A DNA stretch of 64,000 nucleotides from Candidatus Zixiibacteriota bacterium (GCA_026983835.1 JALSTH010000104.1:3862-67861); one strand, 5' to 3'; counted from the first letter of the stretch, positions 5,872 to 58,238 are shown. The notes: generated by a model not told the origin, from the letters alone. Made by a program: numbers and translations.

Positions 5872-5884
5872 GCGTAAGTATCCA

Positions 5885-7147
5885 ATGGAAGGGAAAGACG
5901 GTAATTCATTGATATCCAAGGATCGGTTGCAAGCATTCAGCGAATCGTTCGTCTCCTTTACCGAGATGACTCGACAGCTACAGGAGGCTTATCGCGAATT
6001 AGAACAAAGGTATGAGACGCTTAATAAAAAACTGAGCGAAACCAATATCGAACTGCGGCAATCATTGGCGGAAAAAGACAGACTAAGTTCATATCTAAAC
6101 GATATTCTGGAGAATCTGAACTCGGGTGTTGTTGTTATCGACACGAAGGGAGTAGTCCGTCTTTTTAACAGGGCGGCGGAGCGCATATTAAAATATAATA
6201 ATGATAATGTTATCGGCCGCAAGTGGGGCGATATTATAGATTCCCCCAATACTCCATCCGGTTGTTTGGAGACCCTCACAAAAGGAGCGGTGTTCACCGA
6301 GGAGGAGAAAGTAGTAGCTGATGGTGAAGGAGGATTGATTAACATAGGCTTTTCGACTTCCCTTTTGAAATCCCCTGATGGAGAAGTTATAGGGGCGGTG
6401 GAGGTGTTTTACGATTTAACAAAGATGAAAAATTTGGAAAGGGAAATGACTCGGGTTTCGACGCTTGCCGCTTTGGGGAGGATGGCGGCGACTATTGCTC
6501 ATGAGGTCCGCAATCCTTTGGGTGCCATAGCCGGTTTTGCAGCCTTATTGGATAAGGATACTCCCAAAGATGACGACCGTAAAAAGTTAATCGCAAAAAT
6601 AACAACCGGTATAGGAAGGCTAAATAGGATTGTAAACGGATTACTGGACTTTACGCGGGAACCGAATTTGAATATAACCGATGTCGACCTTGAATCGGTC
6701 ATTTCCGAAGTGATTGAGGAAATCGCAGCAAGGAATAATAAAAGGGGAATAATAATCGAGAGCAAAATAAACGCAAGTCTTGGCAAATATCCGCTCGATA
6801 AAGAGAGTTTTCGATTAGTAATGAATAATTTGATAGATAACGCTATCCAAGCCTCACCCGAAGGGGAGAAGGTAAAAGTGATTCTTAGCCGCAAAGGCTC
6901 TCAGGTAAGGGTGGAAGTAATCGATAAGGGAAAAGGAATTACCGAAGATGTAATAAATAGAATATTCGATCCTTTTTTTACCACTCGGGAGAAGGGAACC
7001 GGTTTGGGTTTACCGGTTGTGAAAAAACTAATCAAAGCACACAACGGAACTATTTTTGCAGAAAGCGGCGGTATAAATAAAGGGGCGAGATTTGTTATTT
7101 GTCTTCCGTTGTTAAACCCCGAACATCCTGATTACAATAAGGAATAA
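5885..7147 (+). CDS. Cytoplasmic PAS sensor histidine kinase, NtrB family (FlrB/FleS/FlgS-like)
   Basis: Coiled coil, then PAS (VVVIDTKGVVRLFNRAAERIL), HisKA H-box (HEVRNPLGAIAGFAALL) and HATPase_c (DKGKGI, GTGLGL). The start was trimmed from ORF 5801 to the internal ATG at ~5885 to avoid overlapping the upstream ORF. Confidence 0.8.
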   Translation: MEGKDGNSLISKDRLQAFSESFVSFTEMTRQLQEAYRELEQRYETLNKKLSETNIELRQSLAEKDRLSSYLNDILENLNSGVVVIDTKGVVRLFNRAAERILKYNNDNVIGRKWGDIIDSPNTPSGCLETLTKGAVFTEEEKVVADGEGGLINIGFSTSLLKSPDGEVIGAVEVFYDLTKMKNLEREMTRVSTLAALGRMAATIAHEVRNPLGAIAGFAALLDKDTPKDDDRKKLIAKITTGIGRLNRIVNGLLDFTREPNLNITDVDLESVISEVIEEIAARNNKRGIIIESKINASLGKYPLDKESFRLVMNNLIDNAIQASPEGEKVKVILSRKGSQVRVEVIDKGKGITEDVINRIFDPFFTTREKGTGLGLPVVKKLIKAHNGTIFAESGGINKGARFVICLPLLNPEHPDYNKE

Positions 7148-7151
7148 AGCT

Positions 7152-8546
7152 ATGCGGAACGATTTTAATAAAGGGATAAAGATTTTAGTAGCCGATGATG
7201 ATTCTTTAATGCGGGATTTCCTGATGGAGGTTTTATCCCGTTCGGGATATCAAGCTTTAAGTGTTCCAGACGGGAAAAGTGCTGTTGAGGCGATTAATCG
7301 GGATGACTTTAACATTATCATAACCGATGTCAAAATGCCGGGTTATGATGGGATGAAGGTCTTAAAAGCGGCATTGAGTAAAAATCCGCAATCTAAGGTT
7401 ATTCTGATTACGGGTTATGGGACAATTGAAAATGCCGTAGCCGCAATGAAGGAAGGTGCCTTTGATTATTTGACAAAAGGCGAGAAAACCTCGCCCGATG
7501 AAATAGAAATAGTGCTGAAACGGGCTATTAATTATCAAAAGCTCGAAACGGAAAACAAACGGCTGAAAAATGAGTTATCGAATAAATATTCTTTTTCCAA
7601 TATGATAGGCAAAAGTCCACAGATGTTGCGTATTTACGATATGATCAAGACGGTTGCCGACAGCAGCGCCACGGTTTTAATCACCGGAAAGTCAGGAACG
7701 GGGAAAGAATTAGTTGCCAAAGCGATACATTTTAACTCAAAGAGAAAAGATTATCCATTTATAAAACTTAACTGTGCCGCCCTGCCGGATGGATTGGTCG
7801 AATCCGAATTGTTCGGCCATGAAAAGGGCGCTTTCACCGGAGCGATAAAAACTGTGAAAGGCAGATTTGAGTTAGCTAATGGGGGCACGGTTTTATTGGA
7901 TGAAATCTCGGAAATGTCGGTTAATATGCAGGCTAAACTGTTGAGGGTTTTGCAGGAGCGGGAGTTTGAACGGATAGGTTCGAGCCGTACCATACAAGCA
8001 GATGTAAGAATCATCGCTACTTCCAATCGGAATTTGAAAGAGGAATACCGTAAAGGGCGCTTTCGGGAAGATCTATATTATAGATTAAATGTAATTCCCA
8101 TTGAGATACCCGAATTATCCGAACGCCGAGAGGATATTCCTCTTTTAATAGAACATTTTATCGAAAAATATTCTTCCAAGAACAATAAACCGATAAAAGC
8201 AATTTCGGAGACGGCAATGAAAGTTCTCTCCGATTATAGTTGGCCCGGAAATGTCCGTGAACTGGAAAATTGTATCGAAAGAGCGGTGGTCGTAAATAAA
8301 TCGGGGACAATAGAAAAAGATGACCTGCCCGGAAATATCTTTGATATTGCAAAAAACGATTTGCCGGAAAGAATCAAACCGGGTATGTCTATAAAAGAGA
8401 TGGAGAAGACTCTCATCCTGAAGACCCTCAAAAAAAGCGGGGGCAACCGAACGCATGCCGCTGAGACTTTGGGCATAACTACAAGAACCTTAAGGAACAA
8501 ACTTGCCGAGTATGGTTTGCATAGCCGTCAGATCGACTCGGAATAA
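7152..8546 (+). CDS. Sigma-54-dependent response regulator, NtrC family (receiver + AAA+ with GAFTGA + Fis-type HTH; FlrC/FleR/FlgR-like)
   Basis: Receiver (ILVADDD, ITDVKMPG), Walker A GKSGTGKE, the ESELFGHEKGAFTGA sigma-54 contact motif, and a C-terminal HTH (RTHAAETLGITTRTLRNKL). It is 4 nt downstream of the kinase. Confidence 0.9.
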   Translation: MRNDFNKGIKILVADDDSLMRDFLMEVLSRSGYQALSVPDGKSAVEAINRDDFNIIITDVKMPGYDGMKVLKAALSKNPQSKVILITGYGTIENAVAAMKEGAFDYLTKGEKTSPDEIEIVLKRAINYQKLETENKRLKNELSNKYSFSNMIGKSPQMLRIYDMIKTVADSSATVLITGKSGTGKELVAKAIHFNSKRKDYPFIKLNCAALPDGLVESELFGHEKGAFTGAIKTVKGRFELANGGTVLLDEISEMSVNMQAKLLRVLQEREFERIGSSRTIQADVRIIATSNRNLKEEYRKGRFREDLYYRLNVIPIEIPELSERREDIPLLIEHFIEKYSSKNNKPIKAISETAMKVLSDYSWPGNVRELENCIERAVVVNKSGTIEKDDLPGNIFDIAKNDLPERIKPGMSIKEMEKTLILKTLKKSGGNRTHAAETLGITTRTLRNKLAEYGLHSRQIDSE

Positions 8547-8683
8547 TCTATTGTTCCTTTCCATAATAGGGCATAATGTGGGATTGATTCGATTCTTCAC
8601 CTGAGGGTTTAATCTATTCTAAAATTGCCGATATTTTAAGTAATTATTGGTTTTTAGACGACAATCTTAAAAAAAGAGCTTAT

Positions 8684-9441
8684 ATGGATATTACTACCAT
8701 AGGGGGGTTGATTTTAGGTATCGGCGCCGTATTGTTTTCCTTTTTTATGGAGGGTGGGCATATTTCCGCAATTATCAGAATTCCCGCAATGATAATTGTT
8801 ATATTCGGAGCCATAGGCGCTACTATAATTACTACTTCCTTCGATAGCATAAAAAGTTTTCCGAAGCTAATCAAAATAGCCTTTTTCCCGGAAAAGCAAA
8901 ACGCTCCCGAGATAATTAAACAAATCGTAAATATGGCACGAAGTGCAAGGCGCGACGGTATTCTTGGGCTTGAACCATATTTAAATGAAATAAAAAATCC
9001 CTTTTATAATAGGGCCGTCCAGCTACTAATAGACGGGACGGAAATGACTGAGCTCAGGGATTTGCTTGAGATGGAGTTGGATAATATTACCAAACGGCAT
9101 AAAGCCGGGATATCGTTGTTTCAAAAATTGGGGGGGTTTTCCCCGACAATGGGAATAATCGGAACTGTCTTGGGATTCATTCCCTAGCTAACACCGATGA
9201 TGCCGGCAAAATGGCTTCCTCTATCGCCTCAGCCTTTATCGCCACTTTATGGGGCGTTGCTTTGGCAAATTTGGTTTACCTTCCCATCGGAGATAAACTC
9301 AGGCGCAGACATGAGGAAGAGATAAGGCTTTTGAATATAATATTAGAGGGAGTAGTCTCCATACAATCGGGAGAAAATCCCCGCATTATCAAAACCAAGC
9401 TATTATCCTTTATCGAACCAGAAAACCGTAAGGTCCGTTGA
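8684..9441 (+). pseudogene. motA: motA flagellar stator protein MotA/PomA family, split into two ORFs (8684..9187 and 9211..9441) by an apparent frameshift near 9180
   Basis: ORF1 ends ...GGFSPTMGIIGTVLGFIP*. An overlapping frame then continues (H)SLANTDDAGKMASSIASAFIATLWGVALANLVYLPIGDKL..., matching the MotA TM3-TM4 region. Both halves are MotA-like, and a -1 slip at ATT_CCC restores one protein. Confidence 0.7.
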
Positions 9442-10136
9442 TTATGCGAAAAACGGATAGAGATGATGACAACGAAAACCTTGATCGTTGGCTATTGACC
9501 TATGCGGATTTAATTACGCTGTTATTGGCACTGTTTATCGTAATGTATTCGATATCGCGCATAGATACAAAGAAATTCGGGAAAGTTTCTGAGGCTTTTA
9601 ATACGGCTTTGAGTGGTACCAACGGGACATTGAAAAACGCTGAAGCCATTCTTCAGAAAGACAATTTAGATAAACTGGTAAAAATAGATAAGCTCCTTAA
9701 TATACAAACTCAAATTAGAGGATTTGTGGCTTCACAGGGTATGGAAAAGGATATCGATGTTATTTTAGAAAAAAATGATTTAACGGTTCATGTAACGGAA
9801 TCGGCATTTTTCGAATCCGGGAAAGCGGACATAAAACCAAAGGCTAAGAAATTCCTAAGATCCCTATCCTCGGTTCTCAAACAAATTCCCAACGAGATAA
9901 GAGTAGAAGGGCATACTGATAACATCCCGATAAGCACTCCTCAGTTTCCATCTAACTGGGAGCTATCGGTTATGAGGGCAACGAAGGTCGTTCGATTTCT
10001 GACAGAGCGGTGTGGAATAAAACCAAAAAGGATCTCAGCCCTCGGTTTCGGCGAATATAAACCGAGATTCCCCAATGATACCCCGGATAACCGTCGACGA
10101 AATAGACGAGTGGATATTGTGATACTTCGGGAATAA
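9438..10136 (+). CDS. motB: Flagellar motor protein MotB (single TM + OmpA-like peptidoglycan-binding C-terminus)
   Basis: N-terminal LTYADLITLLLALFIVMY plug/TM region and OmpA-like FESGKADIKPKAKKFL...GHTDNIPI...LSVMRATKV. It overlaps the motA end by 4 nt (ATGA). Confidence 0.85.
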   Translation: MIMRKTDRDDDNENLDRWLLTYADLITLLLALFIVMYSISRIDTKKFGKVSEAFNTALSGTNGTLKNAEAILQKDNLDKLVKIDKLLNIQTQIRGFVASQGMEKDIDVILEKNDLTVHVTESAFFESGKADIKPKAKKFLRSLSSVLKQIPNEIRVEGHTDNIPISTPQFPSNWELSVMRATKVVRFLTERCGIKPKRISALGFGEYKPRFPNDTPDNRRRNRRVDIVILRE

Positions 10137-15428: not shown

Positions 15429-15443
15429 TGGCACATAATTTGC
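15429..15443 (+). promoter_or_regulatory. Sigma-54 (RpoN) -24/-12 promoter element, TGGCAC-N5-TTGC
   Basis: Sequence tTGGCACataatTTGCt matches the canonical consensus exactly, about 70 nt upstream of ATG 15514. A good Shine-Dalgarno (AAGGGAG) precedes the start. Confidence 0.55.
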
Positions 15444-15513
15444 TTGATTAATAAGGCGATAGTAGTAGGTTAGGAATTATTCTGAGCTCACAGGAAGTTA
15501 TAAGGGAGCATTT

Positions 15514-47131: not shown

Positions 47132-47665
47132 TTATATTGTACCAATCAGTTGCGTTTCATTTTCCTCAATCTCATCTTTAGTAATTTCGGCAGGGTTATC
47201 CCTGAACAAATAGTATTTTGTCGAGTAATCGCTATCGGTCAATGGGATCTGGACTGCCTTTTTGTTTTCTAGATTTACGATAATTGGCCCAAGAAGATTG
47301 ATGCTTATCTCCTCAGGTTCTTTCGGAGGAATGGTTACTACTACGAATATTCTTGCATTAGATGGATTTACTGTCCCGATTCCTGCTAAATCACCTGCGT
47401 GAACCCGTACTTCATAGTCGGGCTTGAAATATAAAGGGTCCACTATCGGGAAGGCGATGGATGGATTCTTAACGGATTGAAGCCAGAGAAAAGGCATCGT
47501 GGATTCTCGTTCAATAAGCACATATTCATGCAAACTCTCAAATCCTAATAATCCTTTGGGAAATAATATAATGTCCCGTTCATTGAACCGAATTTCTCCA
47601 AAGCGGGTGGACTTGACTTTTCGCACAACCGATTTAGCGATTTTTTCCGTAATTATTGTTTCCAT
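47132..47665 (-). CDS. fliW: Flagellar assembly factor FliW (CsrA antagonist)
   Basis: ILFPKGLLGFESLHEYVLIE, the FliW signature. Length 177 aa. Directly downstream of flgL. Confidence 0.85.
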   Translation of the reverse strand: METIITEKIAKSVVRKVKSTRFGEIRFNERDIILFPKGLLGFESLHEYVLIERESTMPFLWLQSVKNPSIAFPIVDPLYFKPDYEVRVHAGDLAGIGTVNPSNARIFVVVTIPPKEPEEISINLLGPIIVNLENKKAVQIPLTDSDYSTKYYLFRDNPAEITKDEIEENETQLIGTI

Positions 47666-47669
47666 AATT

Positions 47670-49580
47670 TTAGCTCAAAAAGTTAACTAATGATGGTTGA
47701 ATTACTTTAGCGACCGTAGCCAATGCCGCCTGATAAACTACTTCTTGGTTGGCTAGGTTGCTGACCGCATTTAGCATATCAGCATCCTCTACATCGGAAA
47801 GCAATTTGGTTATATACACCTGATAATCGAGATTTTTGGAATCCACGCTATCAAGCCGATTTATTCTGCTACCGACAACAGATCTTAATGAAAGTATTTG
47901 ATTTTGGGCTAATTGAAAACGGTCAATTGTTTCCTGAGCGGTTGATACCCAATTATTTTCCAACCCCTTTTGCAAATAAAGTAAACTCCCGACTAAATCC
48001 GGGCTACCCGCTATGCCCAATTGACTTGCCGACCCATTTTCGTCGGTATCATAAACAATTAACGATTGGCCGCTTACCGTAGATTCCAAGATAACTCCGG
48101 TTTTATCGTCGTTCAGACGCATCTTAACTTGAGCCCCCGACCCCTCAATCATATCCATCAAGTCCTTGATGGTTGCATCGGGATTATCATCGAGTGATGA
48201 TAAATCGATATTAACTGAATTATGACCGTTTACAATGTTTATAAGCGAATTGGTAATCCCCAAATTATTGCGTAAATTTGTAAGCTTGGTATTATAGGTC
48301 AAACGCGGATCGACATCATCCCCATCATAAACCATTTGCGATGTGCTGAATAGGATTCCCAAATCCGAGGCAGTTGATTCGCCATCGGCGGATTCCTCAA
48401 TCGATATCATTAGGGGATTTAAATCGCTCCCCACAAATTCACCATTAATAGGCTCGGAGGTTAATAATCCCAAGTCTTCCGCCACACTCCCGCCATCCTC
48501 CTCAACCGTGTAATCCAACCCTAACGAATCGTTTAAGGTTATGGAATTGCCCTCATTCGTTATCGATGCGCTCAAGCCCGGTATTGCGGCATTATTTATG
48601 GCGTCTATTACATCACCCAAATCCTCCGCACCTGTGAGATCTATCGTATATTCGGTTCCGGTGCCGTCTTTAATCGTAAAGGTTGGAATGGAAAGATCCA
48701 CCCCCGAACCGCTATTGAGCATAGATAACGAAGTGTTAACGGTAATATATGGGTCGGATGTATCCTCAAAATGAAAGGAATTTCCCGCATCGGAGATAGA
48801 TACAGTAAAATTGGACAAACCTTGAGAGGCGGCTTGGGAATTAATCGCATCGAGGGCATCACCGATAGAAACAACTCCCGTTAAATCGATATCCGCAGTT
48901 CCGTTCAATGTTTCGATCGTAAAATGATTATCGCCTAAATTTACACCATTTCCACCATTGAGGTTGATAAGTAATGTGTCTCTCGAAAGACCGGGATTCA
49001 AATCATATCCATCACCGAGAACCGTAACCGGTTTTAATAAGAAATCGGAGCCGGGTATGTTGGCGGTAATCATCATATTCCTGTCTATTTCATAGCTCAG
49101 ATCGCCGTTGTCACCTCGATATACAACCCCCATTCCATTGAAATCATACGGGGCTGTTTGAGTCATATGTCCGGCAAAAATATATTTATTCTGATAGGAA
49201 TTATTCCCCGTGGATATTATTTGTTTAATTATATCGCCAATTTGCTGGGAGGCGGCTATTCTCGCATTATCATCATAGGTACCGTTCGATAATTGTAAGG
49301 CTACATCCTGAGCTTGGATAACAAAATCGTTAATAGCCGAAAATGACGAATCGGAATAATTCAACATCGTCCGCGCCGTCCCGATGTTCCGTTGGAATTG
49401 ATCGAGCTCATTCAGATAAGTACGGTAACCGAGCGCTTTGGTGATGCCGATAGGATCGTCCGAGGGCTTATTGATTCTTCTTCCGCTTGAGACAATTGTC
49501 TGCAGTTCCATATAGCGGGAGAATGAGGTCGTTAGATCCCGAACGGCGCGGTCTATAATCATTTGATTGGTAATTCTCAT
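47670..49580 (-). CDS. flgL: Flagellar hook-associated protein 3 FlgL (long form with large variable central domain)
   Basis: Flagellin-like N-terminal helix (MRITNQMIIDRAVRDLTTSFSRYMELQ...) and C-terminal helix (...AALATVAKVIQPSLVNFLS). The central ~400 aa are hypervariable and Gly/Asp/Ser-rich. Confidence 0.8.
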   Translation of the reverse strand: MRITNQMIIDRAVRDLTTSFSRYMELQTIVSSGRRINKPSDDPIGITKALGYRTYLNELDQFQRNIGTARTMLNYSDSSFSAINDFVIQAQDVALQLSNGTYDDNARIAASQQIGDIIKQIISTGNNSYQNKYIFAGHMTQTAPYDFNGMGVVYRGDNGDLSYEIDRNMMITANIPGSDFLLKPVTVLGDGYDLNPGLSRDTLLINLNGGNGVNLGDNHFTIETLNGTADIDLTGVVSIGDALDAINSQAASQGLSNFTVSISDAGNSFHFEDTSDPYITVNTSLSMLNSGSGVDLSIPTFTIKDGTGTEYTIDLTGAEDLGDVIDAINNAAIPGLSASITNEGNSITLNDSLGLDYTVEEDGGSVAEDLGLLTSEPINGEFVGSDLNPLMISIEESADGESTASDLGILFSTSQMVYDGDDVDPRLTYNTKLTNLRNNLGITNSLINIVNGHNSVNIDLSSLDDNPDATIKDLMDMIEGSGAQVKMRLNDDKTGVILESTVSGQSLIVYDTDENGSASQLGIAGSPDLVGSLLYLQKGLENNWVSTAQETIDRFQLAQNQILSLRSVVGSRINRLDSVDSKNLDYQVYITKLLSDVEDADMLNAVSNLANQEVVYQAALATVAKVIQPSLVNFLS

Positions 49581-49626
49581 TTACATCTCCCCTTCTTGGC
49601 TATACAAAACCTGAAAAAAGAATAAA

Positions 49627-49896
49627 TCATTTTTCACCATTATCTTTTTTATTCTCGCCGTTTCTTTTATGCTTTCGCAACAGATCGCTCATCCTTTCAA
49701 TATCCGCACCTTGAGCTTTGGCGGCATCAATATTTTCCTTTAGAATTTTTTTATAGATTTCCTCACGGTGAACTGAGATTTCCGGAGGCGCGATAATGCC
49801 TAAACGAACCTGCCTCCCTTGAATTCCAAGCACCCTGACGGTTACATCATCTCCTATTGCTATTGACTCACCAATCCTCCTTGTCAATATTAACAT
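49627..49896 (-). CDS. csrA: Carbon storage regulator CsrA (post-transcriptional regulator)
   Basis: [48 protein letters not shown] is near-identical in pattern to E. coli CsrA. Confidence 0.9.
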
Positions 49897-49951
49897 TTTA
49901 CCCTCCCTGGCAATTTCAATGTAAAGGTTAGAAACCCTTTTCCATAACTTC

Positions 49952-51334
49952 CTAAACCGTATTTAAAAGTGTATCTATCATCGAATCCATCGTATCTATT
50001 ATCTTTGCGGCCGCATTATATGCATTTTGGTAAGAGATCATATTAGCCATTTCTTCATCCAAAGAAACGCCGGATACCGCTTGTTGTCGATATTGAATTT
50101 GGCTAACCAAGAGGTCGTGATTGTCTTTCAAATTGGATGCTTCCTGCGCCCGAGAACCTATTTCACCTATAAGCGAATTGTAATAATCATCGAAAGTGGA
50201 TGTCCCGTTATCCATTAATTTCTCGTCTTTGAGAGCAAGTATTGCTAAAATATTCGAGTTATCCCCTTCGGAACCATCTTGTGAGATGGCTATATTATCG
50301 GCATTCTCCTTAATCTCATCCGATAATTGGATGGTATCCGCCGTAATGCCCAATGGGTTAAAGAAATTAATTCCCGTGGAACCATCGCTTGTATATCCTG
50401 CAGAGTGAACGGCATTTATAGAACTCACTAATTCGGCGGCATAATCGTTCAATTGCTGGAGTTTCTCCGGGATTATTTCATCGCGAGCTTCAATTAATCC
50501 CTTTAATTTCCCATCGGTAACATTTATCTCAACGGAATGTGCTGTGGACAATACTATTTTGGTTTTAACAGAATCGCCATCACTTGTAATTTTCGTTTCC
50601 CACGGAACATAATCACCCTGATTTATAATGGATACCGAACCCGCATAAACCGTAATAGCTCCATTATCCTCTTCCTGAGTTCTGACATTAACGAGCCCTG
50701 AGAGCTCATCCACTAAATAGTCCCGTTTATCCCGGAGGTCATTGGCGGTCTCCCCCCCAACCTCATATTTAACTATATCCGAATTTAAATCCGCTATTTG
50801 TTGAAGGTAGCCATTAATCTGGAATACGGTGCTGTTGATATCGGAATTAAGCGTATCCTTAAGATCCGTTAATTGACCGCTTATACTATGGAAAGTATCG
50901 ATGACTGTCGATGCTTTTTCTTTTACGGCGGTTTTGGCAGACATACTTTCCGGATCATCGGCGAGATCCTGCCAGGCGCTCCAAAAATCGCTCATCATTT
51001 GGGACAGCCCGGAATCCGACGGCTCATTGAATATCATCTCTATTTGACTCCATGTTTGGTCAAGATTCTCCCATCGTCCCAAACCTTGATTTTCCTTCCT
51101 AAACTGTGTGTCGAGGAATAGCGATCTCATTCTGCGTATACCGGTTGCTTCAACCCCGGTTCCACCATAAGCGTTTGCGATTTTTATCGGGTATGTACTC
51201 GCCATTTTGATATTCTGGCGGGTGTATCCCGGGGTATTTACATTTGCGATATTATGACCCGTGACATTAATAGCAAATTGCTGGGCCAACAACGCCCGCT
51301 TGGCAATCTCAAATCCTATATTAATTCCATACAT
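49952..51334 (-). CDS. flgK: Flagellar hook-associated protein 1 FlgK
   Basis: [39 protein letters not shown]-terminus and C-terminal [17 protein letters not shown]. Confidence 0.9.
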
Positions 51335-51343: not shown

Positions 51344-51850
51344 CTATACAACCCTATTAAGTGCCAAATTCGATTCCGTATTAAATGATGGCCTGACACC
51401 CGCGGCATCGTATGAAGGTTTACCACGGTCGTCGGTATAATAAAATATCTTCATCGTATCGTTGACGATTTCCATCGATCGTTTTATCAGCGCCTCATTT
51501 TGATTTCGTAGTTCCTTTAATTTTTCCAACGAATTTATTAAGTCCCCGCGGAGCTCCATTAAACGCTTCGAATATGCCGGCCCCACACTATTACAAATAT
51601 CGATCAAGCGTAATTCATTGTCTTCCAATCCAAGTTCATTACTTATATTTTTCAATAATGAAATCCTGTCTTTTTCGAGATTCTTTGTTCTCGTAATCAA
51701 ACGATTTTGTAAATTCATATTTTCCTTTAATGAATTCACATCATCATAAACCAAACTCTTTCGTTGGGCGGTCAGCAGTTGTTGTAGCTCCTCAAGGTTC
51801 TTGATCTGTTTATCGAGATTATTTATAAGTGTTTCCAAAATATCGCCCAA
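51344..51850 (-). CDS. FlgN-like flagellar export chaperone (candidate)
   Basis: 168 aa. All-helical, sits immediately upstream of flgK, with FlgN-like size and heptad pattern. Confidence 0.5.
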   Translation of the reverse strand: MGDILETLINNLDKQIKNLEELQQLLTAQRKSLVYDDVNSLKENMNLQNRLITRTKNLEKDRISLLKNISNELGLEDNELRLIDICNSVGPAYSKRLMELRGDLINSLEKLKELRNQNEALIKRSMEIVNDTMKIFYYTDDRGKPSYDAAGVRPSFNTESNLALNRVV

Positions 51851-51863: not shown

Positions 51864-52724
51864 CTAAAAATCGGCATTTTTACCAATATCCTTAACCGAA
51901 TATTCCTCCGAATTTCTTGAATAGCTGATATTTAACCGTTTTAATATGTCTGCCACATAATCCATAGTTTCTTTATATGGAGGGATGCCATTATATCTAT
52001 CCACGGACGATGGTCCGGCATTGTAAGCCGCTAATGCCAATGCTATATTGCCTTTGTACTTGTCAAGCATAAGGCGGAGATATTTGGCACCACCATTTAT
52101 GTTTTGATAAGGATTGAACGGATCCGAGACACCCATTTGTGCAGCCGTTGAATCCGCTAACTGCATTAACCCCTTTGCCCCTTGCGGAGAAACGGCTTTC
52201 GTATCCCCGCTGGATTCAACCTCAATAACAGCTGATAGAAGTTTCGGTGATAGGTTATATTTATGAGCTACTTCACGAATAATATGGGAATATTCACCGT
52301 TTTTATAATTATCTCCAACAGGGTTGCTTCCATCAAGAAGTTTAATCATTTTTGCATTTTGTGGGATAACATCCTCGCTAAAGGCGTCCTTCCAGCTATC
52401 CCCTAAAGCCGCCGGTGCGAGCTGCCTAAAGAGCATCTCATCCAATCCCAACTTGGAATCACCGCTGATTTCTTCGGCTAATTTCGTATCGAATAAGTCT
52501 GTGAACATTTCCCCCCCATATCCTTTGCCCAATAAACCTGATTTGGAAATCGTCCGCCTCATCGTTTTCAAGATATACCCTAAAAATATCGCTTGAAAAT
52601 CACGGCATGTTTTCCGCAGTTCGGCAGCCTTTTGTTTTGTCGATTTCTCACCTTTATTAATTGAATTACTTTGTTTAATGGATATTTGAGGGTTGGACGA
52701 ATCAATTGACGAGGTGTTTATCAT
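51864..52724 (-). CDS. flgJ: FlgJ-type rod-assembly protein: N-terminal rod-binding domain fused to a C-terminal SLT lytic transglycosylase domain
   Basis: Rod_binding motif KTCRDFQAIFLGYILKTMRR. SLT motif AVIEVESSGDTKAVSPQGAKGLMQL...AYNAGP with a catalytic Glu. Confidence 0.8.
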   Translation of the reverse strand: MINTSSIDSSNPQISIKQSNSINKGEKSTKQKAAELRKTCRDFQAIFLGYILKTMRRTISKSGLLGKGYGGEMFTDLFDTKLAEEISGDSKLGLDEMLFRQLAPAALGDSWKDAFSEDVIPQNAKMIKLLDGSNPVGDNYKNGEYSHIIREVAHKYNLSPKLLSAVIEVESSGDTKAVSPQGAKGLMQLADSTAAQMGVSDPFNPYQNINGGAKYLRLMLDKYKGNIALALAAYNAGPSSVDRYNGIPPYKETMDYVADILKRLNISYSRNSEEYSVKDIGKNADF

Positions 52725-52730: not shown

Positions 52731-53837
52731 CTATAGAATTATCAATTCGGCGTGAAGTGCGCCCGCAGATTTTAAAGCTTGGAATATGGCAATAATATCC
52801 CGAGGCGTCGCACCGATAGCATTTAGCGCCCGGGAAAGCTCACTGACATCGGTTTGTTCGTTTAAATAAATCATCCGAGCTGTTTCTTCTTTCGCATTTA
52901 TCTCCGTCTCCGCAGTCTTAACTGTTTTCCCCTGAGAAAATGATTCGGGTTGTGAAATAATCGGTGTAGATTTTATTTTAACCGTTAGATTGCCGTGAGA
53001 AAGCGCCACTGCATCGATGCTTACCCCCGCCCCAGCAACTATTGTCCCCGTTCTTTCGTTTATAACTACCCTCGCGGGAGAACTTGGTTCTATATCGATA
53101 TTTTCCAATTCGGCGATGATCGAAACCATCTCGCCCGAAGTGATATCATCCTTTTGAGGGATGACATTTATGGTCTTTTCACTAATTGCTTCCGCACTAC
53201 AGTATTTAATCTTTTCCTTTATTTTATCGGATAATAATGAAGCGGTTGTATAATCTGGAGTATCCAATTGAATTTTAATTATCTTATTATCTTGTAGGAA
53301 CTCGAAGCGCTTTTCAATCAATCCTCCACCCGGAACACGCCCAACAAGGGTATAATTTTTTGAGATCTTATTGCCCCCCGCCGCTTGAGCATTAAACCCG
53401 CCGGTTGATACTGCTCCCTGTGCCCAGACCATCACATCTCCGTTTGGCGCTGACAGAGGAGTAAGCAACAACATCCCTCCCTCGAGACTGGACGCATCGC
53501 CCATCGAGGAAACGGTTACATCGATTCTACCTCCAACAGGGTCAAGCGGGGTTATCTCAGCGGTAACCATCACGGCGGCAATGTTTTTAACCTTAACCTT
53601 ATTGGGAGGAAGAGATATTCCCATCCTCTGCATCATATTATTCAAGGATTGAAGTGTAAATATCGTTCCCTTACTATCGCCGGATCCGTTTAAGCCAACA
53701 ACCAATCCATAACCGATTAAGGGAACTTTTACCTTAGATTGAATTTCGGCGATATTTTTCAGTTTTACACCGAAAGCAATATTTACGCTGAATAGAATTG
53801 ATATCAGGATTAAAATTATAATAGTTTTTGGTTTCAT
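52731..53837 (-). CDS. flgI: Flagellar P-ring protein FlgI
   Basis: Signal peptide and KLKNIAEIQSKVKVPLIGYGLVVGLNGSGD N-terminus. Length 368 aa. Confidence 0.9.
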   Translation of the reverse strand: MKPKTIIILILISILFSVNIAFGVKLKNIAEIQSKVKVPLIGYGLVVGLNGSGDSKGTIFTLQSLNNMMQRMGISLPPNKVKVKNIAAVMVTAEITPLDPVGGRIDVTVSSMGDASSLEGGMLLLTPLSAPNGDVMVWAQGAVSTGGFNAQAAGGNKISKNYTLVGRVPGGGLIEKRFEFLQDNKIIKIQLDTPDYTTASLLSDKIKEKIKYCSAEAISEKTINVIPQKDDITSGEMVSIIAELENIDIEPSSPARVVINERTGTIVAGAGVSIDAVALSHGNLTVKIKSTPIISQPESFSQGKTVKTAETEINAKEETARMIYLNEQTDVSELSRALNAIGATPRDIIAIFQALKSAGALHAELIIL

Positions 53838-53847: not shown

Positions 53848-54444
53848 TTAAAATAACCAGTTTAAAAATTTAGCGATTATGCCCGGCTTACCACCGGTGT
53901 TTGCAACCCCTTTTCCTTTATAGGATATTTCCGCATTTGCGATATTATATGAATAAACCGTATTTTTTCCCTCTATATCTTGAGGCCTAATTTCACCTTT
54001 AAGAGTTATCGCTTCCTTATCGTCATTGACGCCGATTACACGGGTTCCTTTAATCAAAAAGTTACCGTTTTCCTTAACCCCCACAATAGTTGCTGTCATC
54101 TTTGCCTTAAGGGATCCCGACTTAATAGTTGAGCCCTGTCCGTCGTATTCATTTTTGCCCTCTCCGGAAAAATTAAATAAGGGAATAAAACCCAATGCGC
54201 CTGTTCCCGGACCTCCTTTGGCTTCGGTTTTTTGTTTCTTCTTGGTTACGGTTTTAGCCGAATGAGAAGCTTCGGCGTTTTCCACTATGAGAACCGTAAG
54301 CAAATCCCCGACTTTCCTTGCTTTATGGTCGGAGAACAAACTATTGTTTGCAGCTTCGGTGAAATTCAGCCCGGATCCTGTTGCGATTTGAAAAGACACT
54401 CCAATATAAAATATCAGAATTATGAAATTCTTTAGAGCCTTCAT
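53848..54444 (-). CDS. flgH: Flagellar L-ring protein FlgH
   Basis: SLFSDHKARKVGDLLTVLIVENAEAS...VGVKENGNFLIKGTRVIGVNDDKEAITLKGEIRP. The L-ring implies an outer membrane. Confidence 0.85.
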   Translation of the reverse strand: MKALKNFIILIFYIGVSFQIATGSGLNFTEAANNSLFSDHKARKVGDLLTVLIVENAEASHSAKTVTKKKQKTEAKGGPGTGALGFIPLFNFSGEGKNEYDGQGSTIKSGSLKAKMTATIVGVKENGNFLIKGTRVIGVNDDKEAITLKGEIRPQDIEGKNTVYSYNIANAEISYKGKGVANTGGKPGIIAKFLNWLF

Positions 54445-55184
54445 CTGAGTATTGATACCTCCACTTCGCCATTATCGGACAACCGGCCTTTAATAGTTTT
54501 TCTGGAAGCCAAATTTTTAACTCTTATAAATTTACCCGGATTACCATCCTCCTTAGCGATACCTTCGGCAAATACCTCAAGGTTATCGATTTTAGAGACG
54601 ATTTTTACCCTATCCCCTTTTTTTATTCTTGGAATTATTTCAGTTGCCGAAGAACCAATTATGGCACCATCACCGAAGTTTCTCTTCGAACGCATACCTT
54701 TCAATTTAGACACATCATATATCGGCTTCCCGTTAAAACCCAATATATCCCTTTCAACCAATCGGCAATTTTCCTTATTAAAAGTATCTCCCTTTTTTAT
54801 AACACCTCTTGAACAAATCACTTTCTTTTTCTCCGAAATTCTAAGCGTTATATAAGAGAATACCGGTTCTCCTTTTATCTTCCCATATAATCCATTTTTG
54901 ACCTTGAAAGAATGTATTATCAGCGTCAAAGTCTTTCGAAGCTTTTTAGGAATCTTGCCCTCTATGAAAAGAGGTTGGCTGTTCGGTAAATGCAAGATGG
55001 TCTGTGGATATTTAGTAACCTTAAAACTGATATCATTCATTTTATCGGGAATGTTTTTTAGCAAATAATCGCTTACAGCTTTATCTATATTGCTTTTGTC
55101 CATTCCAAAGGCGGCGGAAACAAGGAACAATACGCTAAGTATCGGTAGAAATCTTTTCATATTATCTTCGTAATTGATTGACAA
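54441..55184 (-). CDS. flgA: Flagellar P-ring assembly chaperone FlgA (SAF domain)
   Basis: Signal peptide. C-terminal SAF-like segment GDRVKIVSKIDNLEVFAEGIAKEDGNPGKFIRVKNLASRKTIKG. Confidence 0.75.
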   Translation of the reverse strand: MSINYEDNMKRFLPILSVLFLVSAAFGMDKSNIDKAVSDYLLKNIPDKMNDISFKVTKYPQTILHLPNSQPLFIEGKIPKKLRKTLTLIIHSFKVKNGLYGKIKGEPVFSYITLRISEKKKVICSRGVIKKGDTFNKENCRLVERDILGFNGKPIYDVSKLKGMRSKRNFGDGAIIGSSATEIIPRIKKGDRVKIVSKIDNLEVFAEGIAKEDGNPGKFIRVKNLASRKTIKGRLSDNGEVEVSILR

Positions 55185-55950
55185 TGGCAGCCATATCGTC
55201 AGAGGTCTGAATTGCCTTCGAATTTATTTCATACGACCGTTGAGCCACAATCATATTAACCATTTCATTTATGACATCCACATTCGATAATTCGAGATAT
55301 CCCTGAACGATTCTCCCAAACCCTTCCTCCGAAGGCGTACCGCTAATCGGTGTTCCGGAAGATGCGGATTCCGTGAAAAGGTTGTGTCCCTTAGCATCCA
55401 ATCCTTGGGGATTAATAAATTTTGTAAGCTCGATTTGGCCTATATCGGTAGGATCGCTCTCCCCGGGCATCATTACCGAAACAATGCCGTCCATAGATAT
55501 GCTAATTGATTCCGCCTCGGCCGGTATTGTTATTTCGGGATCAATTATAAAACCATCGCTGGTTACAATTCGTCCATCATCCGATATTTTCAAGGCACCA
55601 TCGCGAGTATAAGCATAACTTCCATCGGGCATCACGACCCTAAAAAATCCTTGTCCCTCTATGCATAAATCGAGGGGATTTTCCGTGGAGGTCATATTCC
55701 CTTGATTGAAATTACGGGCGGTAGCCGACGGTCTCACGCCATAGCCTAATTCGATATTAACAGGGACTTTCGATTCCGAACTTGATGCTGTACCCGCCAA
55801 ACGCAATTTTTGATAAAGTATGTCCTGAAACTCTATTCTCCCTTTCTTAAATCCGGTTGTATTAACATTGGCTAAATTGTTGGCGATATTATCGACATTC
55901 ATCTGTTGAGCTTCCATTCCGGAAGCCGCCGTTCGCATAGCTTTTATCAT
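55162..55950 (-). CDS. flgG: Flagellar distal rod protein FlgG
   Basis: MIKAMRTAASGMEAQQMNVDNIANNLANVNTTGFKK N-terminus and C-terminal LELSNVDVINEMVNMIVAQRSYEINSKAIQTSDDM. Confidence 0.9.
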   Translation of the reverse strand: MIKAMRTAASGMEAQQMNVDNIANNLANVNTTGFKKGRIEFQDILYQKLRLAGTASSSESKVPVNIELGYGVRPSATARNFNQGNMTSTENPLDLCIEGQGFFRVVMPDGSYAYTRDGALKISDDGRIVTSDGFIIDPEITIPAEAESISISMDGIVSVMMPGESDPTDIGQIELTKFINPQGLDAKGHNLFTESASSGTPISGTPSEEGFGRIVQGYLELSNVDVINEMVNMIVAQRSYEINSKAIQTSDDMAAIVNQLRR

Positions 55951-55975: not shown

Positions 55976-56704
55976 TTATCTAATATTGCCGAGATTATTG
56001 ATGGAGCGTTGAGCAACTCCGTCAAGTATCTGAACCATTTTTTGTTTAATTTCAAATTCCCGAAAACTTGTTATCATATCCACCATTTGATTTAAAGCCG
56101 AGCTGTTTGATTCCTCCAAATATCCCTGCCGAACATTATAATCGGTTGCCGTTTGAGGTTCTATCCCGTCCGGAGCCGTAAATTCGGTATTCCCCGCTTT
56201 GACAAGGTTTTCCGGATTATTAAATTTTACAATTTTTATTTTGGCGAGCGTTTCGCCATTTGTTTCAATATTCCCTTCGACATCGATGGAAGGATTGTTC
56301 GTATCCAGAATAATCGGACCTGAATCCGATAATACTTTATCACCATTGGCGGTAACCAAGGCTCCCGACGGATCAAGGCGAAAACTTCCATCACGAGTAT
56401 ATTTAATTCCATTTTCGGTTTCGATGGTAAAGAAGCCCTCACCTTCTATGGACAAATCCAAAGGCATATCCGTTTTACGGAAGGATGATTGTGTCATATC
56501 AATTATATGTCTTTCTTTTATCGGCGCTTCCCAATCGTAATCTTTGGGGAGATATTTCTGCTCCGCCTTCGAAACAGCCTCCGCGAATATCCCATCCTTT
56601 TTATATCCTATGGTGCCGCTATTCGCGAGATTGTTAGCAATGGCTTCCTGCTTAAAAGCATTGGTGAACATACTGGTCGCAGCCTCATACAATCCTTTAA
56701 TCAT
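55976..56704 (-). CDS. flgF: Flagellar proximal rod protein FlgF
   Basis: MIKGLYEAATSMFTNAFKQEAIANNLANSGTIGYKKD N-terminus and C-terminal rod-family helix LEESNSSALNQMVDMITSFREFEI. Confidence 0.8.
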   Translation of the reverse strand: MIKGLYEAATSMFTNAFKQEAIANNLANSGTIGYKKDGIFAEAVSKAEQKYLPKDYDWEAPIKERHIIDMTQSSFRKTDMPLDLSIEGEGFFTIETENGIKYTRDGSFRLDPSGALVTANGDKVLSDSGPIILDTNNPSIDVEGNIETNGETLAKIKIVKFNNPENLVKAGNTEFTAPDGIEPQTATDYNVRQGYLEESNSSALNQMVDMITSFREFEIKQKMVQILDGVAQRSINNLGNIR

Positions 56705-56751
56705 CTATATATCCTTCCTTGACTTTTCGATTGTAGCCGATATATATCAAA

Positions 56752-56766
56752 GCAATTATTGTGCCG
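56752..56766 (-). promoter_or_regulatory. Sigma-54 (RpoN) -24/-12 element upstream of the flgF operon
   Basis: Minus strand reads cGGCACaataaTTGCt, with invariant GG and GC at correct spacing. The -12 element is about 48 nt upstream of the flgF ATG, which has a strong Shine-Dalgarno (AAGGAAGG). Confidence 0.55.
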
Positions 56767-56987
56767 TGATAAAAGATGATATTGGAAACAATTTATTTTA
56801 TGTAATCAGTTGGTGCTTATGGGGAATCTTAATGGGCAAATTAATTTTTTCTCACTTAACGGAATTAAATTTAATACATAAGGAAAAAAGTTTTTATGAC
56901 TATGAATCTTTTTCCCCCCGATACAAAAACATTTATTGGCATATATTTTTGGTTCGTTTGCCCCAAAATGCAAGGGGGTCAATAAAA

Positions 56988-57428
56988 TTATTTACCTGTC
57001 GATTGTTCCTTTTTGTTGGTGGAATTCAATCGCCAAATGGTCTTCTCAACAACCAGGGATATCTCGTGAGTTTTGAAGGGTTTTGTTATATACTCATCTG
57101 CACCCAACAGTAGAGCATCTTTTACCGTAAATATTTCCCCATAGCCGGTCATAATAATCACGCCGATTTTTGGATTCTCGGCTTTAAGTCTTTTTAGAAG
57201 CTCGAACCCGTTCATTTTAGGCATCTTGATATCAGAGATTACCAAATCTATTCTTTCGGTTTTGACTATCTCGAGGGCATCAAATCCGTTTTGCGCTTTT
57301 ATGACATCATAGCCATCTTTTTTTAATATCGTCTCCAAAAGTTTTAGCATTGGAGCTTCATCGTCAACCACCAGTATTCTCATTTTATATTCCACAATTT
57401 CCTCTAAGTTAAAATAATTCCATTTCAT
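56988..57428 (-). CDS. Single-domain response regulator receiver (CheY-like)
   Basis: ILVVDDE, VISDIKMPKMNG, IIMTGY, TKPF. Confidence 0.8.
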   Translation of the reverse strand: MKWNYFNLEEIVEYKMRILVVDDEAPMLKLLETILKKDGYDVIKAQNGFDALEIVKTERIDLVISDIKMPKMNGFELLKRLKAENPKIGVIIMTGYGEIFTVKDALLLGADEYITKPFKTHEISLVVEKTIWRLNSTNKKEQSTGK

Positions 57429-57470
57429 AGATGTAAAATTCGATAAACAATTAATCCATAATGTATCACC

Positions 57471-57866: not shown

Positions 57867-57879
57867 CGTTCCCCCCTTG

Positions 57880-58233: not shown

Positions 58234-58238
58234 CCTTT

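What the first reader, a model, noticed from the sequence alone, without database searches (positions are those of the whole stretch)
56705..56990. Sigma-54 -24/-12 element in front of a 9.5-kb flgF..fliW operon, with a cognate NtrC-type activator in the same window
cGGCACaataaTTGCt lies on the minus strand at 56752..56766, about 48 nt upstream of flgF. Eleven genes (flgF, flgG, flgA, flgH, flgI, flgJ, flgN-like, flgK, csrA, flgL, fliW) follow with gaps of 55 nt or less. The FlrC/FlgR-like bEBP at 7152..8546 is the obvious activator candidate. RpoN-dependent rod/hook regulation is established in Vibrio, Pseudomonas and Campylobacter, but its presence in a T9SS-bearing FCB-type genome is less documented.
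Basis: partly seen in the sequence, partly recalled or inferred. Interest (0 to 1): 0.55.

Follow-up and report, generated by a model that had tools for sequence, protein, structure and literature searches.

The report
Sigma-54 promoter of flagellar rod operon

Summary
cGGCACaataaTTGCt lies on the minus strand at 56766..56751, with GG and GC exactly 10 nt apart and the GC 48 nt before the flgF ATG. It sits in a 283-nt intergenic gap. Eleven Pfam-verified genes (flgF-G-A-H-I-J-N-K, csrA, flgL, fliW) follow with gaps of 55 nt or less.

It is not chance. The exact core occurs twice in the window against 0.19 expected. A matching GG-N10-GC element lies within 100 nt upstream of flgF in 22 of 24 Zixibacteria/Ignavibacteria-like genomes. 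The figures are 0 of 24 on the opposite strand and 0 of 22 Firmicutes loci.

Two more conserved sigma-54 elements fill the only other large gaps of the same flagellar supercluster, before fliK-flgD-flgE and before fliR-flhBAFG-fliA. Both lie outside the window.

The REC-AAA+(GAFTGA)-HTH activator at 7152..8546 is generic NtrC/AtoC-like by sequence. Its closest orthologues keep the PAS-kinase partner and motAB. In one of them flgB-flgC-fliE-fliF follows, itself behind a sigma-54 element. The activator is therefore a good but unproven candidate.

rpoN could not be looked for in this genome.

Verdict: a new member of a known kind, the polar-flagellate sigma-54 rod/hook programme. Interest is modest.

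The parts
56751..56766 (-). Sigma-54 -24/-12 promoter element CGGCACaataaTTGCT. GG is at 56765-56764 (-25/-24) and GC at 56753-56752 (-13/-12). The predicted transcription start is near 56740, giving a leader of about 36 nt.
   Evidence: An orthologous element is present in 22/24 related loci. The TSS position is inferred from the canonical -12 spacing and is not measured.
56705..56987 (-). 283-nt AT-rich intergenic region carrying the promoter, the leader and the Shine-Dalgarno AAGGAAGGA (56720-56712). An imperfect inverted repeat at 56882-56893 / 56905-56916, about 135 nt upstream of -24, is the only candidate enhancer site and is unverified.
   Evidence: The simple scan finds no sigma-70-like hit on the minus strand in this gap. 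There is no Rfam family match and the leader is unstructured.
55976..56704 (-). flgF (proximal rod), first gene behind the promoter
   Evidence: Pfam LlgE_F_G_D1 + Flg_bbr_C. NCBIfam flgF TIGR02490 scores 172.9 bits against a cutoff of 178.5, and the FlgEFG subfamily model is above its cutoff.
55162..55950 (-). flgG (distal rod)
54441..55160 (-). flgA (P-ring chaperone)
   Evidence: The start is taken from the called gene.
53848..54444 (-). flgH (L-ring)
52731..53837 (-). flgI (P-ring)
51864..52724 (-). flgJ-like (rod-binding domain fused to an SLT lytic transglycosylase)
51344..51850 (-). flgN (chaperone of FlgK/FlgL)
49952..51334 (-). flgK (hook-filament junction 1)
49627..49896 (-). csrA
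   Evidence: above the NCBIfam cutoff
47670..49580 (-). flgL (hook-filament junction 3), unusually long at 636 aa
   Evidence: NCBIfam flgL TIGR02550 scores 233.7 bits against a cutoff of 127.2. Pfam result.
47132..47665 (-). fliW, last gene of the run. A 289-nt gap follows.
7152..8546 (+). NtrC-family sigma-54 activator (REC, AAA+ with GAFTGA, HTH_8). It is the candidate activator of the flagellar sigma-54 promoters.
   Evidence: Synteny with motAB and flgB-fliF in close orthologues is shown.
5801..7147 (+). Kinase with a coiled-coil, PAS, HisKA and HATPase_c domains and no evident membrane segment, so probably cytoplasmic (the likely start is the ATG at 5885). It is the partner of the activator and has an FlrB/FleS-like architecture.
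   Evidence: The pairing is conserved in L083, L085, L087, L090 and L091.
8608..8634 (+). Sigma-28-like element TTTAA-N14-GCCGATAT, 49 nt before motA. It suggests that motAB is a separate, FliA-dependent unit.
   Evidence: The same element lies before motA in L090 and L091. Consensus scans for it are noisy.
8684..10136 (+). motA (split into two ORFs, 8684-9187 and 9211-9441) and motB (9438-10136)
15429..15444 (+). Second sigma-54 element in the window, a perfect TGGCACataatTTGCT 69 nt before a T9SS-CTD cargo gene (15514-16338). It shows that the sigma-54 regulon here is not only flagellar.

Best explanation
The element at 56766..56751 is a genuine sigma-54 (RpoN) -24/-12 promoter. It starts transcription about 36 nt upstream of flgF and drives the co-directional, tightly packed run flgF-flgG-flgA-flgH-flgI-flgJ-flgN-flgK-csrA-flgL-fliW.

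Sigma-54 holoenzyme would bind the GG/GC boxes as a closed complex. It would need ATP-dependent remodelling by a bacterial enhancer-binding protein. The best candidate is the two-component pair encoded at 5801..8546, a PAS kinase without evident membrane segments plus a REC-AAA+-HTH activator. This pair sits next to motAB here and next to flgB-flgC-fliE-fliF in a close relative.

The promoter is one of at least three sigma-54 promoters that cut a Bacillus-like flagellar supercluster into rod/hook-stage units. The organism also encodes FlhF/FlhG and FliA. In other words it follows the 'polar flagellate' hierarchy known from Vibrio, Pseudomonas and Campylobacter, with sigma-28 taking over for motAB.

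Shown here: the motif, its position, the gene content and the cross-genome conservation. Inferred: sigma-54 binding, the transcription start, the extent of the transcript and the identity of the activator.
For: Motif and position: the match is exact, in an intergenic gap and co-oriented with flgF.

Conservation at flgF: a GG-N10-GC element fitting TGGCAC-N5-TTGCW (2 mismatches or fewer) lies within 100 nt upstream of flgF in 22/24 Zixibacteria/Ignavibacteria-like loci, and the other two carry 3-mismatch versions. It is found on the opposite strand in 0/24. The background is 0.01 per 100 nt. In these sites GG, A5, T13 and GC are invariant (GG and GC were required by the scan) while the spacer varies. 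By taxon the counts are 5/5 Fibrobacterota, 7/11 Desulfobacterota and 0/22 Firmicutes.

Other promoters on the same contig: TGGCATacagcTTGCT lies in the fliJ/fliK-operon gap and TGGAACtaaacTTGCT in the fliQ/fliR gap. Both gaps and both elements are conserved in two relatives. In the 84 kb of the contig that is held there are 4 hits with 1 mismatch or fewer, all intergenic and co-oriented. Random sequences give a mean of 0.77, and only 0.5% of them reach 4.

Alternatives not found: the simple scan shows no sigma-70-like site on the minus strand in the gap and no credible terminator inside the run. There is no Rfam match.

Activator: GAFTGA is intact. PAS-HK + bEBP + motAB is kept in L090 and L091, and in L091 it is followed by flgB-like, flgC, fliE and fliF behind CGGCATttcctTTGCT.

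Context: FlgH, FlhF, FlhG and FliA are all present. Burnham et al. 2020 (PMC7064773) found this combination to co-occur with a flagellum-associated TCS in 19 of 21 Gram-negative polar flagellates.
Against: rpoN was not found in the window or in the 1.1 Mb of related sequence held. The rest of this genome could not be searched.

There are no expression data and no mapped transcription start.

The -24 box begins with C instead of the consensus T.

The activator has no equivalog-level match to FlgR or FlbD (341 and 385 bits against a cutoff of 750). Its best hits are AtoC/NtrC and Aquifex NtrC1/NtrC4 structures. Orthologues at 57-60% identity have no motility neighbours. No convincing shared enhancer site was found.

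Internal promoters within the 9.5-kb run cannot be excluded.
Confidence: 0.85

Rival explanations
1. The promoter is sigma-54-dependent, but the activator is a different bEBP encoded elsewhere in the genome. This could be a FleQ/FlrA-like master regulator or a FlbD-like protein. The HK/bEBP pair at 5801..8546 would then control something else, and its position next to motAB would be incidental.
For: By sequence the bEBP is generic AtoC/NtrC-like.

The conserved upstream module is a partner-switching set plus response regulators, not flagellar genes. Orthologues at 57-60% identity are flanked by ruvB/queA or by other TCS genes.

The bEBP lies 48 kb from flgF. Related genomes carry several bEBPs (two within 7 kb in L087).
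Against: HK-bEBP-motA-motB is kept in the three closest genomes. In L091 it abuts flgB-flgC-fliE-fliF, the same placement as flrBC/fleSR next to fliEF in Vibrio and Pseudomonas.

The kinase has no evident membrane segment and has the coiled-coil + PAS build described for FleS/FlrB.

No other bEBP is present in the 84 kb around the flagellar genes.
Confidence: 0.35
2. The motif is a chance match. flgF would then be transcribed by read-through from the upstream signalling genes, or from an unrecognised housekeeping or sigma-28 promoter.
For: If one mismatch is allowed in the 14-nt pattern GGCAC-N5-TTGC, without requiring GG and GC to be intact, the window as a whole shows no enrichment (5 found, 5.9 expected).

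All genes from fliG to fliW are on one strand, so read-through is physically possible.

The housekeeping promoter consensus of this phylum is unknown.
Against: The orthologous position carries the same GG-N10-GC element in 22-24 of 24 related genomes, despite flgF protein identity of only 38-54% and unalignable flanks.

The element is never on the opposite strand, and it is absent from 22 Firmicutes loci.

The exact core is about tenfold above expectation.
Confidence: 0.05
3. The conserved sequence is not a promoter. It would instead be a binding site for another regulator, or part of a conserved 5'-UTR RNA element, for example a CsrA target.
For: csrA and fliW are in the operon. The conserved block lies close to the start codon (22-48 nt) in the relatives.
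Against: Only two dinucleotides 10 nt apart and their immediate flanks are conserved, while the spacer varies freely. That is the signature of sigma-54 binding, not of a hairpin or a GGA-type CsrA site.

There is no Rfam hit. The leader folds no better than shuffles (z = -0.38).
Confidence: 0.03

Closest known systems
Vibrio cholerae FlrBC / Pseudomonas aeruginosa FleSR class III sigma-54 promoters (rod, ring, hook and hook-junction genes)
   Same: A -24/-12 promoter lies in front of flgF-G-H-I-J-K-L-type genes. FlhF/FlhG and FliA are present. The kinase contains a PAS domain and has no evident membrane segment, and it is paired with a REC-AAA+-HTH activator. In a close relative the TCS lies next to fliE-fliF (background from PMC7064773 and PMC3930126).
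   Different: The phylum is different (Zixibacteria, FCB superphylum). No FlrA/FleQ master regulator was seen in the 84 kb held. The gene order is a Bacillus/spirochaete-like supercluster cut by internal sigma-54 promoters. csrA and fliW are embedded in the operon. The activator is not an equivalog of any named flagellar bEBP.
Campylobacter jejuni / Helicobacter pylori FlgSR-RpoN regulon
   Same: Rod, hook and hook-junction genes are sigma-54-dependent. A CsrA-FliW module is associated with flagellar genes. The hook protein is large (FlgE 755 aa).
   Different: The FlgS kinase lacks PAS. The NCBIfam FlgR model scores 341 bits against a cutoff of 750, and FlgS scores 104 against 600. Flagellar genes are scattered in epsilonproteobacteria but clustered here.
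Cross-phylum association of sigma-54 with flagellar biosynthesis (Francke et al. 2011, PMC3162934)
   Same: That study predicts that motile diderm lineages with sigma-54 place it in front of flagellar genes. The data here fit this.
   Different: A text search of that paper found no mention of Bacteroidetes, Chlorobi or Fibrobacter, and no paper was found that combines sigma-54 or rpoN with Zixibacteria or Ignavibacteria. The conservation upstream of flgF shown here appears to be undocumented in the searchable literature.

Membership tests
Sigma-54 (RpoN)-dependent promoter | GG and GC dinucleotides exactly 10 nt apart within TGGCAC-N5-TTGCW | tested here: met
   CGGCAC-aataa-TTGCT has 1 mismatch. 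The exact core is found 2 times against 0.19 expected.
Sigma-54 (RpoN)-dependent promoter | Intergenic, co-oriented, and a short distance upstream of the regulated gene | tested here: met
   It lies in a 283-nt gap, 48 nt from the GC to the ATG, on the same strand as flgF.
Sigma-54 (RpoN)-dependent promoter | Element conserved at the orthologous position, with an invariant GG/GC and a variable spacer | tested here: met
   Present in 22/24 related loci (24/24 at 3 mismatches or fewer), 0/24 on the opposite strand and 0/22 Firmicutes.
Sigma-54 (RpoN)-dependent promoter | rpoN gene present in the same genome | not testable with these tools
   No RpoN box was found in the window or in 1.1 Mb of held loci. 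The rest of the 179-kb contig and of the MAG cannot be read. Indirect support: an intact GAFTGA bEBP and four well-placed elements.
Sigma-54 (RpoN)-dependent promoter | Transcription start about 12 nt downstream of the GC, dependent on rpoN and on a bEBP | not testable with these tools
   This needs dRNA-seq, 5'-RACE or in vitro transcription.
Flagellum-associated two-component system (FlrBC / FleSR / FlgSR type) | Response regulator with REC + sigma-54-interaction AAA+ (GAFTGA) + DNA-binding domain | tested here: met
   Pfam finds REC, Sigma54_activat, AAA_lid_14 and HTH_8. GAFTGA is seen.
Flagellum-associated two-component system (FlrBC / FleSR / FlgSR type) | Adjacent cytoplasmic sensor kinase (PAS and/or coiled-coil, no membrane segments) | tested here: met
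   PAS + HisKA + HATPase_c. The translation shows a charged, coiled-coil-like N-terminus and no hydrophobic segment; this was judged by eye and no topology predictor was run. The architecture is as described for FleS/FlrB.
Flagellum-associated two-component system (FlrBC / FleSR / FlgSR type) | Conserved genomic association with flagellar genes | tested here: inconclusive
   The pair is next to motAB in the window, L090 and L091, and next to flgB-fliF in L091. This is not so in the 57-60% orthologues L085 and L087. L083 is cut by the contig end.
Flagellum-associated two-component system (FlrBC / FleSR / FlgSR type) | Equivalog-level sequence match to a characterised flagellar bEBP (FlgR, FlbD, FlrC) | tested here: not met
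   NCBIfam FlgR scores 341 bits and FlbD 385 bits, each against a cutoff of 750. The best hit is AtoC at 516 bits against 714, also below its cutoff. In the PDB search the FlrC AAA+ domain ranks below Aquifex NtrC1/NtrC4.
Polar-flagellate transcriptional programme (FlhF/FlhG + sigma-54 rod/hook class + sigma-28 late class) | FlgH, FlhF, FlhG and FliA encoded | tested here: met
   FlgH. flhF (SRP54-type), flhG (CbiA/MinD-type) and fliA (sigma-70 regions r2-r4) lie downstream of flhA.
Polar-flagellate transcriptional programme (FlhF/FlhG + sigma-54 rod/hook class + sigma-28 late class) | Rod and hook genes behind sigma-54 promoters, late genes behind sigma-28 promoters | tested here: met
   Sigma-54 elements lie before the flgF run, before the fliK-flgD-flgE run and before the fliR-flhBAFG-fliA run. 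A sigma-28-like element before motA is conserved in 3 genomes. All of this is motif-level evidence only.
Polar-flagellate transcriptional programme (FlhF/FlhG + sigma-54 rod/hook class + sigma-28 late class) | [quoted passage not shown] | not testable with these tools
   This needs genetics in a cultivated representative.

The most novel reading that the evidence does not exclude
Sigma-54 control of the rod/hook stage of flagellar assembly is not a proteobacterial speciality. It would be an ancient, widely inherited trait of flagellated diderm lineages: Zixibacteria, Ignavibacteria-like lineages, Fibrobacterota, and also some Verrucomicrobia, Nitrospinota, Deferribacteres and Desulfobacterota. 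The flgF-proximal -24/-12 element would be kept in place across phyla.

In this Zixibacteria lineage the same sigma factor also drives at least one type IX secretion cargo gene. That would link swimming and T9SS-dependent surface functions in one regulon.
Probability: 0.45. Interest if true: 0.45.

Novelty: new member of a known kind. Interest (0 to 1): 0.3.

Why it matters
It extends a textbook regulatory design, sigma-54 plus a two-component activator switching on rod, ring and hook genes in FlhF/FlhG polar flagellates. The extension is to an uncultured FCB-superphylum lineage, and the promoter in front of flgF turns out to be one of the best-conserved non-coding features of these flagellar loci.

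In practice it gives annotators a reliable landmark for operon starts in Zixibacteria/Ignavibacteria-like MAGs. It also yields a three-promoter sigma-54 plus sigma-28 model of the flagellar hierarchy that can be tested by metatranscriptomics. Finally, it supplies comparative data for the question of how old sigma-54 control of flagella is.

It does not reveal a new mechanism.

Tried and rejected
1. rpoN. A RpoN-box regex over six-frame translations of the window and all 95 held sequences (1.1 Mb) found nothing.

2. Enhancer (UAS) search. Inverted repeats in the gap, shared 11-mers between the three promoter regions and a G-rich GGGGGGAAA motif gave nothing above chance. The repeat at 56882-56916 is kept only as an unverified candidate.

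3. Sigma-28 scan of the window. TAAA-N15-GCCGATAW and GCCGATAW are enriched everywhere, mostly inside genes, so the scan is uninformative. Only the motA-proximal site is kept, because it is conserved in L090 and L091. No sigma-28-like site was seen in the flgK-csrA or csrA-flgL gaps.

4. Specific naming of the bEBP. Neither NCBIfam nor PDB sequence searches place it with FlgR, FlrC or FleR rather than NtrC/AtoC.

5. bEBP near flgF in relatives. tblastn of the bEBP against 80 flgF loci found only REC-domain matches.

6. Other motif hits in relatives. The 41 further hits with 2 mismatches or fewer in the 31 FCB-type loci scanned were nearly all 2-mismatch matches without a consistent, well-placed downstream gene, many of them inside ORFs. 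They were treated as background.

7. RNA-element reading. There is no Rfam hit above noise and no stable leader structure.

8. Literature. No paper was found that combines Zixibacteria or Ignavibacteria with sigma-54/rpoN and flagella.

Full report
**What is in the sequence**

On the minus strand the window reads ...tatcaCGGCACaataaTTGCTttgatatatatcgg....
- GGCAC is at 56765-56761 and TTGC at 56755-56752. GG and GC are therefore separated by exactly 10 nt.
- The 16-mer at 56766-56751 differs from the sigma-54 consensus TGGCAC-N5-TTGCW only at its first base.
- The GC is 48 nt upstream of the flgF ATG at 56704. A Shine-Dalgarno sequence, AAGGAAGGA, lies at 56720-56712.
- The element sits in a 283-nt AT-rich gap (56705-56987) downstream of a single-domain response-regulator gene.

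**The operon**

They are flgF, flgG, flgA, flgH, flgI, a flgJ-like rod-binding/SLT protein, flgN, flgK, csrA, flgL (636 aa) and fliW.
- All are on the minus strand, from 56704 down to 47132.
- The gaps are between -4 and 55 nt.
- A simple scan finds no sigma-70-like site on the minus strand in the gap upstream of flgF.
- It finds only one weak terminator-like hairpin on that strand, inside flgL.
- A single transcript is the natural reading, but it is inferred. Internal promoters are not excluded.

**Chance**

The exact core GGCAC-N5-TTGC occurs twice in the 64 kb, against 0.19 expected; 2 of 100 shuffles reach two.
- The second copy is a perfect TGGCACataatTTGCT at 15429-15444. It is also intergenic and co-oriented, 69 nt before a gene for a protein with a T9SS C-terminal sorting domain.
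- With one mismatch allowed in that 14-nt pattern, without requiring GG and GC to be intact, the count is at chance. The single site therefore needs further support.

**Source and taxon**

The window is part of a 179-kb metagenome contig (ENA ERZ27262647, k141_524001).
- The best homologues of FlgF (49-54% identity), of the bEBP (68-71%) and of FliM (62-68%) are from MAGs labelled Zixibacteria.
- The window also encodes SprA (21152-27082) and a Por_Secre_tail cargo protein.
- 'T9SS-bearing FCB-type genome' is therefore correct.

**Conservation of the flgF promoter**

An alignment of FlgF homologues was used to fetch 80 loci from species-representative genomes. I scanned the 100 nt upstream of each flgF for GG-N10-GC elements with at most two mismatches to the consensus.

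| Group | Loci with the element |
|---|---|
| Zixibacteria/Ignavibacteria-like | 22 of 24 |
| Fibrobacterota | 5 of 5 |
| Desulfobacterota | 7 of 11 |
| Firmicutes | 0 of 22 |

- In the Zixibacteria/Ignavibacteria-like group the element lies 22-48 nt before the start codon. The remaining two loci have three-mismatch versions at the same place.
- None of the 24 has a hit on the opposite strand of the same segment.
- The background density over all loci is 0.01 per 100 nt.
- In the 23 aligned sites GG, A5, T13 and GC are invariant (GG and GC were required by the scan), C4 is present in 21 of 23, and the five spacer positions vary freely. This is the signature of sigma-54 recognition, not of an RNA hairpin or a palindromic operator.
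- The closest species representative, L003, has TGGTATatttaTTGCT at the same distance from the start codon (48 against 47 by the same count). It also has the same upstream response-regulator gene.
- Single representatives of Deferribacteres and Nitrospinota and two Verrucomicrobia also carry the element.
- Other hits in these loci are background: nearly all are 2-mismatch matches, many inside ORFs, without a consistent, well-placed downstream gene.

**The rest of the flagellar cluster**

Walking along the source contig shows a single co-directional supercluster:

fliG-fliH-fliI-fliJ | MgtE_N-like-fliK-flgD-flgE-flbD-fliL-fliM-fliN-fliO-fliP-fliQ | fliR-flhB-flhA-flhF-flhG-fliA-(signalling genes) | flgF...fliW

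The bars mark the three largest intergenic gaps in the 37 kb of the cluster that was read (188, about 300 and 283 nt). Each holds a sigma-54-type element 34-47 nt before the next ORF.
- The first gap holds TGGCATacagcTTGCT (L092 3486-3501).
- The second gap holds TGGAACtaaacTTGCT (L089 3361-3376).
- The third gap holds the element under study.

Two relatives with the same gene order keep both outer gaps.
- In the fliJ gap both have a perfect TGGCAC-N5-TTGCT.
- In the fliQ gap both have a GGAAT-N5-TTGCT variant.

In the 84 kb of this contig that I hold, there are four hits with at most one mismatch. All four are intergenic and co-oriented with the next gene. First-order Markov random sequences give a mean of 0.77, and 0.5% of them reach four.

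**The activator**

The protein encoded at 7152-8546 has REC, Sigma54_activat, AAA_lid_14 and HTH_8 domains and an intact GAFTGA loop.
- It is preceded by a kinase with a coiled-coil-like N-terminus, PAS, HisKA and HATPase_c domains, and no evident membrane segment. This is the build described for FleS/FlrB (PMC7064773).
- It is followed by motA and motB.
- By sequence it is generic. AtoC and NtrC are the best NCBIfam models, all below their cutoffs. FlgR scores 341 bits against a cutoff of 750. Aquifex NtrC1/NtrC4 are the nearest solved structures.

Synteny gives more information.
- The 68-70% orthologues keep kinase-bEBP-motA-motB (L090, L091).
- In L091 motB is followed by a flgB-like gene, flgC, fliE and fliF, with CGGCATttcctTTGCT 23 nt before the flgB-like ORF. 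This recalls flrBC/fleSR next to fliEF.
- Orthologues at 57-60% identity keep the kinase but have unrelated neighbours.

I therefore rate this pair as the activator at roughly 0.55-0.6. The main rival is another bEBP encoded elsewhere in the genome.

A sigma-28-like TTTAA-N14/15-GCCGATA element before motA is shared by the three genomes. Together with fliA in the cluster, this suggests a sigma-28 late class.

**What could not be done**

- rpoN is not in the window or in any held sequence, and the rest of the genome is unreachable with these tools.
- Its presence is inferred from three things. One is the intact bEBP, which by established knowledge acts only on sigma-54 holoenzyme. The second is the four well-placed elements. 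The third is the clade-wide conservation of the promoter.
- No enhancer site could be defined.
- There is no Rfam family match and no stable leader structure.

**Comparison and novelty**

Mechanistically this is the sigma-54 rod/hook class of FlhF/FlhG polar flagellates (PMC3930126, PMC7064773). It also fits the cross-phylum sigma-54/flagella association reported by Francke et al. (PMC3162934).
- It differs in phylum.
- It differs in the Bacillus-like supercluster cut by internal sigma-54 promoters.
- csrA and fliW are embedded between the hook-junction genes.
- No FleQ/FlrA-type master regulator is recognisable in the region read.
- I found no paper describing sigma-54 control of flagella in Zixibacteria or Ignavibacteria.

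**Verdict**

It is a new member of a known kind, of modest interest (0.3). The broad conservation across non-proteobacterial phyla is the most interesting by-product.

Noticed in passing
window 15429-15444 (+), gene 15514-16338 (+): A perfect sigma-54 consensus, TGGCACataatTTGCT, lies 69 nt upstream of a 274-aa secreted protein with a T9SS C-terminal sorting domain (Por_Secre_tail). This is a possible non-flagellar member of the sigma-54 regulon. Its conservation in relatives was not checked.
   Followed up: partly
L092 3486-3501 and L089 3361-3376 (window-equivalent about 80461-80446 and 70590-70575, outside the window): Two more sigma-54-type elements lie in two of the three largest gaps of the part of the flagellar supercluster that was read. 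One is before MgtE_N-like-fliK-flgD-flgE...fliQ and the other before fliR-flhB-flhA-flhF-flhG-fliA. Both gaps and both elements are conserved in the relatives L093 and L094.
   Followed up: yes
window 8684-9187 and 9211-9441 (+): motA is split into two ORFs in different frames (167 aa + 76 aa). The orthologues in L090 and L091 are intact (251 and 258 aa). This is a frameshift, which could be an assembly error, a pseudogene or recoding.
   Followed up: partly
window 8608-8634 (+); L090 about 9460-9490; L091 about 2710-2740: A sigma-28-like TTTAA-N14/15-GCCGATA(T/C/A) element about 50 nt before motA is conserved in three genomes. It suggests a FliA-dependent motAB unit separate from the upstream bEBP gene.
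   Followed up: partly
window 47132-51334 (-): The gene order is unusual: flgK-csrA-flgL-fliW, with csrA between the two hook-junction genes. FlgL is 636 aa, with a Flagellin_IN insert. No flagellin gene is present in the region read.
   Followed up: no
window 51864-52724 (-): The FlgJ-like protein combines the rod-binding domain with an SLT lytic transglycosylase domain instead of the enterobacterial glucosaminidase domain.
   Followed up: no
window 46501-46842 (-): An HU/IHF-family gene lies 289 nt after fliW. Its best NCBIfam hits are IHF alpha/beta, below cutoff. IHF-type bending proteins often assist sigma-54 promoters, but no link was tested.
   Followed up: no
window 809-5339 (+); L090 1912-6272; L085 1736-4987: A WYL regulator, a partner-switching set and two or three single-domain response regulators are conserved upstream of the kinase-bEBP pair in relatives. 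The partner-switching set comprises a GAF-SpoIIE phosphatase, a HATPase_c_2 anti-sigma-type kinase and a STAS protein. Its function is unknown.
   Followed up: partly
window 56988-59978 (-); L003, L004, L006: The GAF-histidine kinase and two CheY-like regulators immediately upstream of flgF are syntenic in three Zixibacteria relatives; a 131-aa fragment resembling an MCP signalling domain lies between the regulators in the window and in L003. They may feed signals into flagellar expression or rotation.
   Followed up: partly
window 7045-7060 (+): A two-mismatch sigma-54-like site, CGGAACtatttTTGCA, lies inside the 3' end of the kinase gene, 92 nt before the bEBP start. A similar TGGAACggtatTCGCT occupies the equivalent place in L091 (898-913). 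This could be an autoregulatory internal promoter or chance.
   Followed up: no
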